Source: Saccostrea echinata (taxonomy: Eukaryota). From it: 64,000 nucleotides of DNA. The stretch spans positions 28,396,001 through 28,460,000 of the forward strand of contig NW_026889765.1 of the NCBI RefSeq assembly GCF_033153115.1. The letters run 5' to 3'. The first letter of the stretch is position 1, and every line of letters begins with the position of its first letter. Positions 58,101 through 63,890 of this stretch are shown in pieces. A program made the position numbers and the translations under genes. The notes under the pieces were generated by a model, which did no database searches, was not told the origin of the DNA, and saw only the letters and a list, made by a program, of their open reading frames with translations.

Positions 58101-60492
58101 CCCTGTAACTGGTTGTATAGTGTTCTGATTGTACATGTATATCCGTCTTTATAGTTATTAAAATCTGTTTCAATTAAAATGATATTATTGGAGAAGATAA
58201 GCCTAGGAACATTAAATACCTGAGTAAAGCTTTGGTTTTTCACAGATCGCTTTCGTTTGATCACCAGAAACAAACAAACAGCTCCAATCACCAAAGCAAT
58301 GCCAAGGAAAAAAGCCACGAAAAACATCAAGGCAGTAAAACCATGCTGATACAATATCTGAAACAAGACATATATCATCTTAGTTCATTGCACAGACCCT
58401 CAAAATAAATTATGACAAATGATTTTATTAATAGAAAGTTCTAACAGAACTCTGTTTAAATTAAATCTCGTTTTGTTCCATTATTTACTTACATTTTTTT
58501 CAACATCTCGGATGCCATGGACACACATACTTAGGCTGATTGGTCCAACACTTGATGTCAAAATGTTCTAAATTAACAGAGAAAAAAAAATAGAGATGAT
58601 CTTATTTTCACTAATAATGAGTAGGTCTTCCGTCCAGAAGAATTGTGTAAAAAAGATAAAATTTTTCAAAAGTTCAAACTTTAAAACTATTAGTTTTGTG
58701 GTCTCTTGACCTTGAGGGTATCCAAAACAAACCCGTGGAATCTATATATAAGCATTTATTCACACTTTCATATAACTATGCAAATATGGCATATTGATTT
58801 TGAAGACTGAAATAAAATTAAAAAATTAATATGCATTCTTATTGTCTTAGTGATTTTAGTTTAAAATGACATGGATTTTCTTCATCACTAGATAAATCAA
58901 GCATCAGAGACAAAGCTCACTGGATAAGAGAAATACAGCTGGCCCTTGTAAATGTTGTCTCCTGCCTGCAGGTTTCCTCCATTTGTTCCTGAGGGGGTCG
59001 CAATAAAGCTCAGGTACCTCTCCTCCCCCGCTGTGAAATAAAGCAAGAAATGAGGGTCTCATAATGTAGTCCCACTGAGTTCAAGATGACAAGGTTTGAC
59101 TGTATCTGAAAATTCCTTTACCTGAAAGGTTACCAGGACTCCACTTGAACTCCAGTTGACCAGAAATAGGCACAATCTCAGTATTTACTGATGTGTTTAC
59201 AGCCATTGTAGAGTACGAAGAAAACATTCCATTACTGAGATCAAACTCCACCATTACATCGGTGGCAGTGATGGTGCCTATGTTGATGATCACCATGGAC
59301 ACCAGGACAGTATCTGGAGATGTTGTTGCACTATTTAGCTGTCAGCAGAAAATAAAATTAAATACTGATTTTGTAATCATTTGAGATTAATGTTATTTTC
59401 TGAGCACACTAAGGATAAATGTACTGTAGATCACGAAATTTTTGAGACACCTTATTTTTGTAAGAAAAGTATTTTGTATTTATTTAAAACAAAATTTTCA
59501 TGAATTCCAGTTATTTTTGAATATAATTCTTAATAATAAAAACATACTGACAAATGAAATTTTCACAAGCAGACCGTCTCTTATAATTACACAAATTAAA
59601 ATAGTTCTCAGTAATAAAAATTGATTCACAGTAATTTAAGAGTATTCTCCTATTTCTGCGTGACTTCGAACTAGAATACCAGTACTTATTTTCAAAAATT
59701 AGTTTAACCTGAAACATAAACCTCAAATTCTAGAAATTAGAATAACTGGAATGTTACTTCCATAGCTGTTTTCATTATTATTTGACTCAAAACTATGTTA
59801 GTTTCCTAATAATGGGAGAGGACTCATAAAGGTTAAGCATGTATATGGATCTCATTCTGATTCAGTGCATAATCAAATACTTAATATAAAATGTAAGTTA
59901 TAAATTAAAGTTTACCTCCCATCTCTGTATGACTTTGAGCAGAGGAAGTGTGTTTACAGTGGCTCCAGTGGAATTCACTTTCCATTCAGTAAACTCCACC
60001 ACTAAACCGGCAACATTGGGTGTACCAGTGAAAAAAGAAGATGTATTCACATACGCAGGATTTACAGATGTGTTTTCTGCATATGTATGCAGCTGAAAAA
60101 GTTGCAAATATTAAATGAAAATTTATTCAAACTTTTTTTTTCTACCACTAATATTGAATTCATTCCATGGAAAGTATTGTACAAATGTGTAATGGTTATG
60201 CTTAAAAAGATTGATTTAACTATTTTGGTTTTAAAAGAAAAATGAATTTTATTTCAAAATAAACATAAATCATATATGATCAAACAGATATTCATATTTT
60301 TTTCTTTTTAATTTCAAATTCTATATTGCATTGTTTACAAAATAAAAACAAACCACATACATTGTAAAAGTATGCATAATTGTCCACTCTAGTGACATTA
60401 ATATCTTCCACATAAAGTTCAGTCAAATCGGACACTTTAAATGACTGACAGGTCACTAGCAGGGAGAGCTGCACAACAATGAACAGCAACAT
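35636..60492 (-). CDS. EVC2: Limbin / Ellis-van Creveld protein 2 orthologue (~1294 aa, 29 coding exons)
   Basis: Phase-consistent GT-AG exons: 60492-60361, 60092-59916, 59338-59122, 59030-58921, 58567-58493, 58357-58220, 58066-57978, 57403-57326, 56611-56368, 56004-55924, 55507-55397, 53263-53039, 52915-52830, 51866-51707, 49142-49073, 48761-48570, 48321-48209, 47915-47818, 47531-47439, 47338-47230, 46894-46748, 46305-46204, 46094-45969, 45855-45802, 45038-44869, 44546-44459, 42552-42389, 41971-41882, 35981-35636 (3885 nt). Architecture: signal peptide, beta-rich ectodomain, TM HGFTALMFFVAFFLG (cf. EVC2 HGLHAAGFFIAFLLS), LDIVCTVKADTDIETQR (cf. LEIATLNRADADLEACR), long coiled coils and a basic C-terminal RKKKKK. 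Confidence 0.88.
37756..37990. mobile_element. Tc1/mariner-pogo-type MITE
   Basis: TACTGTA...TACAGTA ends with degenerate AATTTCGYG subterminal repeats. A related copy lies at 59422-59633. Confidence 0.55.
39443..40615. mobile_element. Non-autonomous TIR transposon with subterminal arrays of ~20-bp GATATC-centred units
   Basis: TIRs TATGAGGTGCCATTT..TATTTTT / AAAAATA..AAATGGCACCTCATA, with GAAAAC duplicated on both flanks. Arrays of TTTTGATATCAGAAA at 39470-39740 and 40303-40583. Confidence 0.85.
42871..44367. mobile_element. hAT-type non-autonomous DNA transposon
   Basis: TIRs CAGGGATGGG / CCCATCCCTG, 8-bp TSD TAATGAAC / AAATGAAC, and subterminal (G)TAATCGATTA(C) repeats at both ends. Confidence 0.85.
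45109..45606 (-). mobile_element. HINE (non-autonomous Helentron) of a different subfamily, opposite orientation to the other HINEs
   Basis: Hairpin TAGTCCCCTACCGGTGAAACCGGAGGGGACTA, a (CTGT/CCGT)n microsatellite, two ~145-bp units, and terminal AGTATTGCTAATGCAATACT..CTTGTT. Confidence 0.82.
47040..47126 (-). mobile_element. tRNA-derived repeat head (pseudo-tRNA)
   Basis: Minus strand TAGCTCAATTGGTAGAGCACTGGACTGGCAAACCAGAAGTTCCAGGTTCAATCCC has A and B boxes but no proper acceptor stem. A similar decayed copy lies at ~52048-52110. Confidence 0.6.
49258..51455 (+). mobile_element. HINE with an array of ~168-bp satellite units (different unit sequence from 408-1869)
   Basis: Left end AACAAGAGGCCCAAGGGCC..GGTCACCTGAGT. 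Well-conserved units near 50411, 50579, 50746, 50915 and 51084, with decayed units from ~49760. GACG microsatellite, then hairpin TAGGTCACCTGAGTGACTCAGGTGACCTA. Confidence 0.85.
53245..53935 (-). repeat. Tandem array (~11 x 55-75 bp) derived from an EVC2 intron/exon junction
   Basis: The core GCAAACTCCTGTCAA (minus strand TTGACAG|GAGTTTGC) occurs near 53256 (real acceptor), 53315, 53382, 53449, 53516, 53583, 53650, 53722, 53789, 53862 and 53916. Confidence 0.9.
54035..55170 (+). mobile_element. HINE with ~5 x 166-bp satellite units (same family as 408-1869)
   Basis: Same ends and right hairpin. Units near 54117, 54283, 54449, 54614 and 54780, followed by (GACA)n. Confidence 0.88.
55540..55850. 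repeat. Degenerate ~18-bp intronic minisatellite (TAATAAYCATTACATG-like)
   Basis: Recurrent ATCATTACATG / AACCATTACA units. Confidence 0.55.
57509..57845 (-). mobile_element. Full-length tRNA-SINE (V-domain-like) with a 13-bp TSD
   Basis: The minus strand has a tRNA head GGTAGCTCAGTTGGTAGAG, a central GGATGAGACCTTAAAAACCAAGGCCCCGTGTC..TAAAGAACCC and a (CAAT)n tail. TSD ATCAATGAGAATA at 57496-57508 and 57846-57858. Confidence 0.88.
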
Positions 60493-60764
60493 CTTGTTTT
60501 CACTGAAAATAATGTTGAGAATATGAATCTCAAAGGTTACTTATAAATCCTTCATTTATCTGTTTAAACATTTAAATTTAAAGTGAGCTCAAAGTGCTGC
60601 TCACACTGTGAGCCCTAAGTACAAAAATTCCTAAGCAGAGTATACTTATGCATTAATTCAAAAGTCTGTTTTTTTTCTTCCCAAAGTTACCTAATTTGCT
60701 ATACATTCATGAGATTTTTTTTCCTTACATTTTCGTGTTTGACTTTGCCTTGATGAAAGATCTA

Positions 60765-63614: not shown

Positions 63615-63695
63615 AATATGATACGTTTCACAAGGGGAACTATTTCATTTCAGATGTCAATTAATTAAAGAGAAAAAAGAGAGAAAAAAGTGATC

Positions 63696-63890
63696 ATGGC
63701 TTCCTCGGGGAATTACTTTTACTATTCTCCATCTGATGTGTGTGTTCCAGCCGTAGTTAACCTAGTACAGGATCAGTTCTCTGTGGATTCTAGCTGGATG
63801 GCTGGTGCCTTTTTCCTGGGTTTATTTTTGGGTGCTCTGCTCACAGCAATATGTGTCCCATTTTGCCTGAAGGATCTGGAGAAGAAAAAA
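63696..63890 (+). CDS. EVC: First coding exon of a probable Ellis-van Creveld protein (EVC); gene continues off the right edge
   Basis: MASSGNYFYYSPSDVCVPAVVNLVQDQFSVDSSWMAGAFFLGLFLGALLTAICVPFCLKDLEKKK is an N-terminal signal-anchor with the C-x5-6-L-x3-D..A-xx-LG-xx-LG pattern of EVC. Its divergent position next to EVC2 supports the call. Donor AAA|GTAAAA. Only 65 aa are visible. Confidence 0.62.

What the first reader, a model, noticed from the sequence alone, without database searches (positions are those of the whole stretch)
58220..63890. Head-to-head EVC2-EVC ciliary Hedgehog module in a bivalve
Seen: a complete EVC2-like gene on the minus strand and, 3.2 kb away and divergently oriented, an exon encoding an EVC-like signal anchor. 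Established: vertebrate EVC and EVC2 are adjacent, divergently transcribed and form a ciliary complex that acts with Smoothened; flies and nematodes lack them. Inference: the pair and its shared promoter are retained in this lophotrochozoan, suggesting cilium-linked Hedgehog machinery in molluscs. Invertebrate orthologues have been noted before, so the novelty is moderate.
Basis: partly seen in the sequence, partly recalled or inferred. Interest (0 to 1): 0.7.

Follow-up and report, generated by a model that had tools for sequence, protein, structure and literature searches.

The report
Oyster head-to-head EVC2/EVC gene pair
This oyster carries intact copies of the two genes behind human Ellis-van Creveld syndrome, placed head to head around a likely shared promoter and likely making one cilia-membrane complex, an arrangement already reported in a limpet, so it is mostly ordinary and a Hedgehog role in molluscs remains untested.

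Summary
The minus strand holds a 29-exon gene for a 1294-aa EVC2 (60492 to 35636; Pfam EVC2_like, 108 bits). The plus-strand anchor exon opens a 22-exon gene for a 968-aa EVC that continues beyond the window; its orthologues carry Pfam EVC_N/EVC_C. The start codons are 3204 bp apart. Two transposon insertions, absent from a second copy in the assembly, supply about 2.1 kb of the spacing. Blair et al. 2011 reported the head-to-head pair and proposed a bidirectional promoter in the limpet Lottia, sea urchin and amphioxus. Cilium-linked Hedgehog signalling does not follow from the genes' presence: EVC-family proteins sit in choanoflagellate cilia without canonical Hedgehog, and only one of two EFCAB7-binding motifs is recognisable here. 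One new lead: each protein has a single extracellular cysteine at the homologous position before its membrane helix (17 of 18 and 18 of 19 invertebrate homologues), suggesting an inter-chain disulfide. The scan's notes held no earlier EVC finding.

The parts
35636..60492 (-). EVC2 coding span, 29 exons, 1294 aa: signal peptide, Ig-like beta-sandwich ectodomain (predicted), one transmembrane helix (~241-273), long helical cytosolic region
60361..60502 (-). EVC2 first coding exon (ATG 60492; signal peptide)
58493..58567 (-). EVC2 exon carrying Cys227, the only cysteine between residue 26 and the membrane helix
58220..58357 (-). EVC2 transmembrane exon (residues 238-283)
35636..35981 (-). EVC2 last exon; basic motif 20 residues from the C-terminus, matching the position of the vertebrate RRKKN/RKKKN motif; no FV/IV pair in the last 70 residues
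62314..62361 (-). EVC2 non-coding first exon (5' end is the furthest contig end seen, not a mapped start)
   Evidence: spliced contigs in runs X1 and X2 (two studies)
62362..62669 (.). 308-bp gap between the outermost 5' ends: candidate bidirectional promoter core; CpG-rich, no TATA match; RFX-half-site-like and ETS-like words at 62394-62406 (motif names recalled; weak)
62670..62766 (+). EVC non-coding first exon
   Evidence: spliced contigs in runs X1 and X3 (two studies), partly X4
63654..63890 (+). EVC first coding exon (ATG 63696): Cys16 and signal anchor (residues 33-61). The gene continues for 21 more exons to G000:C16:28470810
   Evidence: (loose ends run into the next exon)
60765..62129 (.). 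1365-bp non-autonomous DNA transposon in EVC2 intron 1 (26-bp terminal inverted repeats, TA duplication; Tc1/mariner-like by recalled rule); absent from the C42 copy
62858..63614 (.). 757-bp fold-back transposon in EVC intron 1 (~300-bp inverted arms, 8-bp duplication; hAT-like by recalled rule); absent from the C42 copy

Best explanation
This is an oyster's intact EVC2 and EVC gene pair, set head to head with spliced first exons about 310 bases apart, likely driven by one shared promoter and likely encoding a membrane heterodimer that is targeted to cilia, as in vertebrates. Shown here: gene structure, splicing of both 5' ends, family identity, hydrophobic segments matching the vertebrate topology, and a CpG-rich interval between CpG-poor gene bodies. 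Inferred from vertebrate work: co-expression, binding through the cytosolic coiled coils, mutual dependence for ciliary entry, and anchoring at the ciliary base through EFCAB7-IQCE (about 75% for a ciliary heterodimer). Least certain: that the complex relays Smoothened activity to Sufu/Gli in molluscs (about 45%). My own inference (about 35%): the single extracellular cysteines, EVC Cys16 and EVC2 Cys227, would join the two chains by a disulfide.
For: Identity. PF12297 scores 108 bits over residues 231-618. The closest plus-strand orthologues carry precomputed PF28141, and more distant ones PF28139 plus PF28141. These are EVC_C and EVC_N, and chordate clusters named Ellis-van Creveld protein rank 2 and 3 for the Ostrea orthologue P0007. 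The top three Atlas hits for P0001 are EVC2/limbin clusters. A FastTree tree of 45 rows gives two clades at SH-like support 100: the minus-strand model groups with amphioxus EVC2 and the plus-strand model with a sea-cucumber protein named EVC. Promoter. GT-AG joints on opposite strands come from two studies, and both occur in run X1. CpG observed/expected is 1.21 in 62130-62857 against 0.34 and 0.29 in the gene bodies. Topology matches the mouse proteins: signal peptide plus one helix for EVC2, signal anchor for EVC. Pathway context. Hedgehog, Sufu and a multi-exon Frizzled-family gene that I read as Smoothened are in this genome. EVC2 and an EVC homologue were found in sea urchin cilia. The basic tail motif was found in 11 of 23 EVC2-class proteins examined.
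Against: No vertebrate EVC or EVC2 sequence was retrieved, so no direct reciprocal BLAST was run; orthology rests on Pfam labels, Atlas clusters and named invertebrate proteins. The Atlas scores for EVC2 (0.88-0.89) are below its 0.9 line. No labelled EVC3 was in the tree, and the maximum-likelihood run did not finish. The FV/IV motif needed for EFCAB7 binding in mouse is absent from the last 70 residues here. EFCAB7 and IQCE were not searched for in this genome. Contigs cannot show start sites, strand-specific levels or co-expression. No paper found links oyster Hedgehog to cilia.
Confidence: 0.7

Rival explanations
1. The pair is a true EVC/EVC2 ciliary complex, but in molluscs it has an older Hedgehog-independent job (for example a membrane scaffold in motile or sensory cilia), and oyster Hedgehog signalling does not need cilia.
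For: EVC3 relatives were found in cilia of choanoflagellates, which lack canonical Hedgehog (passages). An EVC-family protein occurs in the unicellular Pigoraptor. Knock-down of Fused, Kif27 or Iguana leaves planarian Hedgehog intact, and annelid Smo lacks the BBSome-binding site. The FV motif is not found.
Against: EVC and EVC2 proper appear with animals and are absent from flies and nematodes. Sea urchin Hedgehog is reported to need cilia (cited; paper not read). The basic tail motif keeps its vertebrate position.
Confidence: 0.4
2. The genes are neighbours by descent from an ancient inverted duplication but use separate, independently regulated promoters.
For: Contigs give only the outermost covered bases, and no expression levels were measurable. 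The pair is unlinked in sea anemone.
Against: Only about 308 bp lie between the outermost 5' ends, within one CpG peak. Both transposons landed in the first introns and not in this core. The linkage is kept in vertebrates, amphioxus, urchin and limpet.
Confidence: 0.15
3. One or both genes are EVC3-type paralogues or generic coiled-coil ('trichohyalin-like') proteins rather than EVC and EVC2 orthologues.
For: Public names are 'trichohyalin-like'. The local Pfam copy gives no EVC family for the plus-strand proteins. No vertebrate or labelled EVC3 sequence was in the tree.
Against: Newer Pfam labels EVC_N and EVC_C; full-length colinear homology including the anchor; two clean clades; no third family member found in this genome (limited sensitivity); conserved head-to-head synteny.
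Confidence: 0.05

Closest known systems
Vertebrate EVC-EVC2 (limbin) complex of the ciliary EvC zone (PMC3052239; PMC10413113)
   Same: Divergent gene pair (start codons 2.86 kb apart in human, 1.75 kb in mouse; 3.2 kb here and 1.67 kb in the C42 copy). EVC has a signal anchor; EVC2 has a signal peptide, an ectodomain and one helix; both have long helical cytosolic regions; a basic motif lies about 20 residues from the EVC2 end.
   Different: No FV/IV motif in the last 70 residues; binding, ciliary location and Smoothened coupling are untested. Whether vertebrates keep the paired extracellular cysteines could not be tested.
Head-to-head EVC/EVC2 in Lottia gigantea, Strongylocentrotus purpuratus and Branchiostoma floridae (Blair et al. 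2011, PMC3052239)
   Same: Same genes and arrangement in an invertebrate, including a mollusc, with the same promoter inference.
   Different: A bivalve rather than a gastropod. Here spliced contigs place both non-coding first exons and bound the shared core at about 308 bp, with transposon insertions in both first introns that differ between the two copies.
EVC3.1/EVC3.2 ciliary paralogues (10.1101/153437)
   Same: Same wider family; found in cilia.
   Different: Reported from choanoflagellates, anemone and urchin and presumed Hedgehog-independent. The oyster genes carry EVC and EVC2 labels instead, and no third paralogue was detected here.

Membership tests
EVC2 (limbin) | Pfam EVC2_like (PF12297) above the curated cut-off | tested here: met
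   108.1 bits against a cut-off of 25, residues 231-618
EVC2 (limbin) | Signal peptide, extracellular N-terminal domain, one transmembrane helix, cytosolic coiled coils | tested here: met
   Hydrophobic segments at 1-21 and 241-273, plus a weaker one at 113-133 that the model places in beta strands. The model of orthologue P0003 has an all-beta region at 28-230, then helices. Predicted, not measured.
EVC2 (limbin) | W-peptide basic motif (mouse RRKKN, human RKKKN) near the C-terminus | tested here: inconclusive
   An Arg/Lys run starts 20 residues from the end, followed by hydrophobic residues, but the Asn is not kept. Found in 11 of 23 EVC2-class proteins; several misses are truncated or fused models.
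EVC2 (limbin) | W-peptide FV (human IV) motif for EFCAB7 binding (a functional feature of the vertebrate protein) | tested here: not met
   No FV/FI/IV/II pair in the last 70 residues of the oyster protein; such a pair occurs in 4 of 23 proteins. This lowers 'EvC-zone anchoring as in mouse', not family identity.
EVC | N-terminal signal anchor followed by cytosolic coiled coils, about 1000 aa | tested here: met
   968 aa, one hydrophobic segment at 33-61; colinear across 20 homologues
EVC | Pfam EVC_N (PF28139) / EVC_C (PF28141) | tested here: met
   PF28141 is precomputed on P0005-P0008 (P0005 is 99% identical to the model over residues 66-968); both families are on more distant bivalves; names. 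The local Pfam copy gave no EVC hit, so no own score.
EVC / EVC2 orthology | Reciprocal best hit or tree placement with vertebrate proteins | tested here: inconclusive
   No vertebrate sequence retrieved. The tree separates two clades anchored by named amphioxus EVC2 and sea-cucumber EVC.
EVC-EVC2 locus | 5'-to-5' adjacency with close transcription starts | tested here: met
   Opposite-strand spliced first exons about 308 bp apart
EvC-zone Hedgehog module | EVC-EVC2 binding, ciliary localisation and Smoothened association | not testable with these tools
   Needs cell experiments
EvC-zone Hedgehog module | EFCAB7 and IQCE present | not tested
   No query sequence or specific profile was at hand; both are reported in two annelid transcriptomes

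The most novel reading that the evidence does not exclude
Invertebrate EVC and EVC2 form a disulfide-locked ciliary membrane complex through matching lone extracellular cysteines (EVC Cys16, EVC2 Cys227), with an Ig-like EVC2 ectodomain facing outwards, and this complex makes Hedgehog signalling cilium-dependent in molluscs, dating the cilium-Hedgehog link to the bilaterian ancestor. About 35% for the disulfide alone, about 45% for the Hedgehog role alone.
Probability: 0.17. Interest if true: 0.6.

Novelty: new member of a known kind. Interest (0 to 1): 0.22.

Why it matters
The locus itself adds little: it is a bivalve example of an arrangement published for a limpet in 2011. Its value is practical. 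When cilia joined Hedgehog signalling is an open question for spiralians (PMC9695228), and oyster larvae already have a cyclopamine-sensitive muscle phenotype (PMC6290081). Correct models of EVC and EVC2, publicly named 'trichohyalin-like' and in one case missing the anchor exon, give a direct knock-down test. The paired cysteines are a cheap, testable structural lead for a complex with no sequence match among solved structures.

Tried and rejected
Complex prediction of the cytosolic parts (EVC2 300-720 with P0005 255-750) returned 'no answer'. It is no evidence either way and did not include the cysteine or membrane region. PDB sequence searches with P0007 and P0001 found 0 hits. Exon-by-exon Pfam scans were weak: 3 of 35 pieces hit PF12297, all under the cut-off. 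A PF12297 hit on contig C32 was rejected as a hydrophobic, lysine-rich false match with stops and no tblastn support. A search for an EVC3-like paralogue with the Pigoraptor protein hit only the EVC exon and its C42 copy (low sensitivity). No vertebrate sequences came from three homologue searches or the 30 of 150 listed representative hits that I looked up by name. The maximum-likelihood tree did not finish; FastTree was used instead. An intron-position comparison of the paralogues on a pairwise alignment was out of register and uninformative. No full RFX X-box was found. The RFX-half, ETS and YY1-like words have background rates of 0.05-0.3 per 550 bp and were chosen after looking, so they are hints only. 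No run is on record as RNA; the GT-AG joints are what indicate mRNA. The first read-laying was swamped by repeats. Pusapati 2014 and Dorn 2012 were not held and may already treat invertebrate W-peptides or EVC3. Earlier scan notes held nothing on EVC.

Full report
Setting. The window is G000:C16:28396001-28460000 of a 923-Mb assembly, and a second, near-identical copy of the locus lies on C42. An exon query returned a 1294-aa protein, P0001, that public sources name 'trichohyalin-like' from the oyster Saccostrea echinata, and orthologues from three other oysters, all with PF12297.

Minus-strand gene. Fitting splice sites gave 29 coding exons from 60492 to 35636, all GT-AG, translating to P0001 at 1294 of 1294 positions. 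P0001 scores 108 bits on Pfam EVC2_like. Hydropathy shows a signal-peptide-like start and a strong helix at 241-273. An AlphaFold model of the Ostrea orthologue (21-sequence alignment, mean pLDDT 75) has an all-beta region at 28-230, a membrane helix and long helices. Its best Foldseek matches are weak hits to Ig-like beta-sandwich proteins such as bacterial adhesins (E about 1e-5, about 10% identity), which indicates a fold and not a function. This matches the topology shown for mouse Evc2 (PMC3052239, Results section read).

Plus-strand gene. Extending rightwards gave 22 coding exons and 968 aa ending at C16:28470810, with one hydrophobic segment at 33-61 and one GC-AG intron. The four closest proteins carry precomputed PF28141, and more distant molluscan ones PF28139 plus PF28141. 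The Atlas names these EVC_C and EVC_N and lists chordate Ellis-van Creveld protein clusters at ranks 2 and 3. A search of 1.84 billion representatives found 162 proteins at E up to 0.001, with full-length relatives across molluscs, annelids, echinoderms and others. The EVC and EVC2 profiles align over 835 columns at E=1e-70, including the membrane helix. A FastTree tree of 45 rows (43 chosen mostly full-length proteins plus both models; fragments, near-duplicates and some other long proteins left out) splits into two clades at support 100, with each model in the expected one. Limits: no vertebrate or labelled EVC3 sequence was available.

Promoter. Contigs from four runs (RNA by guess; spliced joints show mRNA) were laid on the C42 copy, which lacks the two transposons, and mapped back. 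EVC2 has a non-coding first exon at 62314 to at least 62361 (X1, X2). EVC has one from at most 62670 to 62766 (X1, X3). The introns are GT-AG on opposite strands, and 308 bp separate the outermost ends. CpG observed/expected is 1.21 across 62130-62857 against 0.34 and 0.29 in the two gene bodies. I read this, from general knowledge of mosaic methylation in bivalves, as an unmethylated promoter between methylated genes. The 3.2-kb spacing includes a 1365-bp element and a 757-bp fold-back element, both repeated in the genome (31 matches from 26 candidates; 74 matches from 40 scored of 1205 candidates). Both are absent from C42, which has its own insertion and a spacing of 1673 bp. True start sites and co-expression were not measurable.

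Mechanism. In mouse the two proteins bind through cytosolic coiled coils, need each other to enter cilia and act downstream of Smoothened. EVC2's last 43 residues dock on EFCAB7 through an FV motif and an RRKKN motif (PMC10413113, passages). The oyster tail keeps a basic run at the same distance from the end but no FV-like pair in the last 70 residues. Hedgehog, Sufu and a multi-exon Frizzled-family gene that I read as Smoothened from recalled features are present. Oyster larval muscle is cyclopamine-sensitive, and that paper never mentions EVC (PMC6290081, passages). I commit to a co-expressed ciliary heterodimer (about 75%), with Hedgehog coupling at about 45%. Against coupling: EVC3 is in choanoflagellate cilia (10.1101/153437, passages; supplements closed), and the authors of PMC9695228 (section 3.5 and passages read) note cilium-independent planarian Hedgehog and call the question open. 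The planarian and sea urchin papers were seen only as citations.

New lead. The profile alignment pairs EVC2 Cys227 with EVC Cys16. Each is the only cysteine on the outer side of its mature chain in the oyster, 27 and 26 residues before the aligned mid-helix glycine. It is kept in 17 of 18 EVC2 rows and 18 of 19 EVC rows that have a residue there (21 and 20 rows). After dropping close relatives and partial rows the counts are 12 of 13 and 16 of 17, making it the second most conserved of 225 ectodomain positions and the most conserved after Met1 of 34. Lone conserved extracellular cysteines often form inter-chain bonds (general knowledge), but homodimers or another partner fit equally well. A search for 'EVC-EVC2' with 'disulfide' listed 2 papers, and two broader searches showed no relevant title (listings only). 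Subscription papers are not covered.

Comparison and verdict. Blair et al. 2011 state that in amphioxus, sea urchin and the snail Lottia the genes lie 5' to 5' and probably share a bidirectional promoter, and that flies and nematodes lack them (its supplementary tree was not opened). Interest 0.22.

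Noticed in passing
G000:C42 copy (L010); protein P0005: The public 921-aa EVC model lacks the signal-anchor exon and starts in a C42-specific intronic insertion, although the anchor exon is intact there and is spliced in contigs of two studies. Probably an annotation error.
   Followed up: yes
P0022, P0016, P0018, P0019, P0029, P0101, P0067: EVC-clade proteins occur in Priapulus (an ecdysozoan), Owenia (an annelid; EVC was not found in two other annelid transcriptomes), a nemertean, Lingula, Macrostomum (EVC and EVC2) and Intoshia (long branch). 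The loss in flies and nematodes is thus probably not ecdysozoan-wide.
   Followed up: partly
P0121/P0173, P0158/P0021, P0003/P0007: EVC2 and EVC of scallop, acorn worm and flat oyster share the same longest-contig length (775,368; 1,379,563; 75,578,129), suggesting linkage; orientation was not seen.
   Followed up: no
P0038: An EVC-family protein of the unicellular holozoan Pigoraptor chileana (E=4e-27 to oyster EVC); no cysteine between residue 26 and its membrane helix.
   Followed up: partly
window 53264-53900 (minus strand): About ten decayed tandem copies (~59 bp) of the splice acceptor and first codons of the EVC2 exon at 53263 lie just upstream of it (seen); possible decoy acceptors.
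   Followed up: no
window 62688-62711 and 63654-63668 (+): Two short upstream ORFs (7 and 4 codons) in the EVC 5' UTR (read).
   Followed up: no
window 30349-32049 (+) and 15914-18334 (+): An intronless rhodopsin-family GPCR, tail to tail with EVC2, and a C2H2 zinc-finger ORF; both lie in the CpG-richer left part of the window.
   Followed up: no
G000:C42:2787001-2847000: The second copy of the whole locus is 99% identical over window 15059-32692 but 92-98% over the EVC genes, with different insertions; most likely an uncollapsed haplotype.
   Followed up: partly
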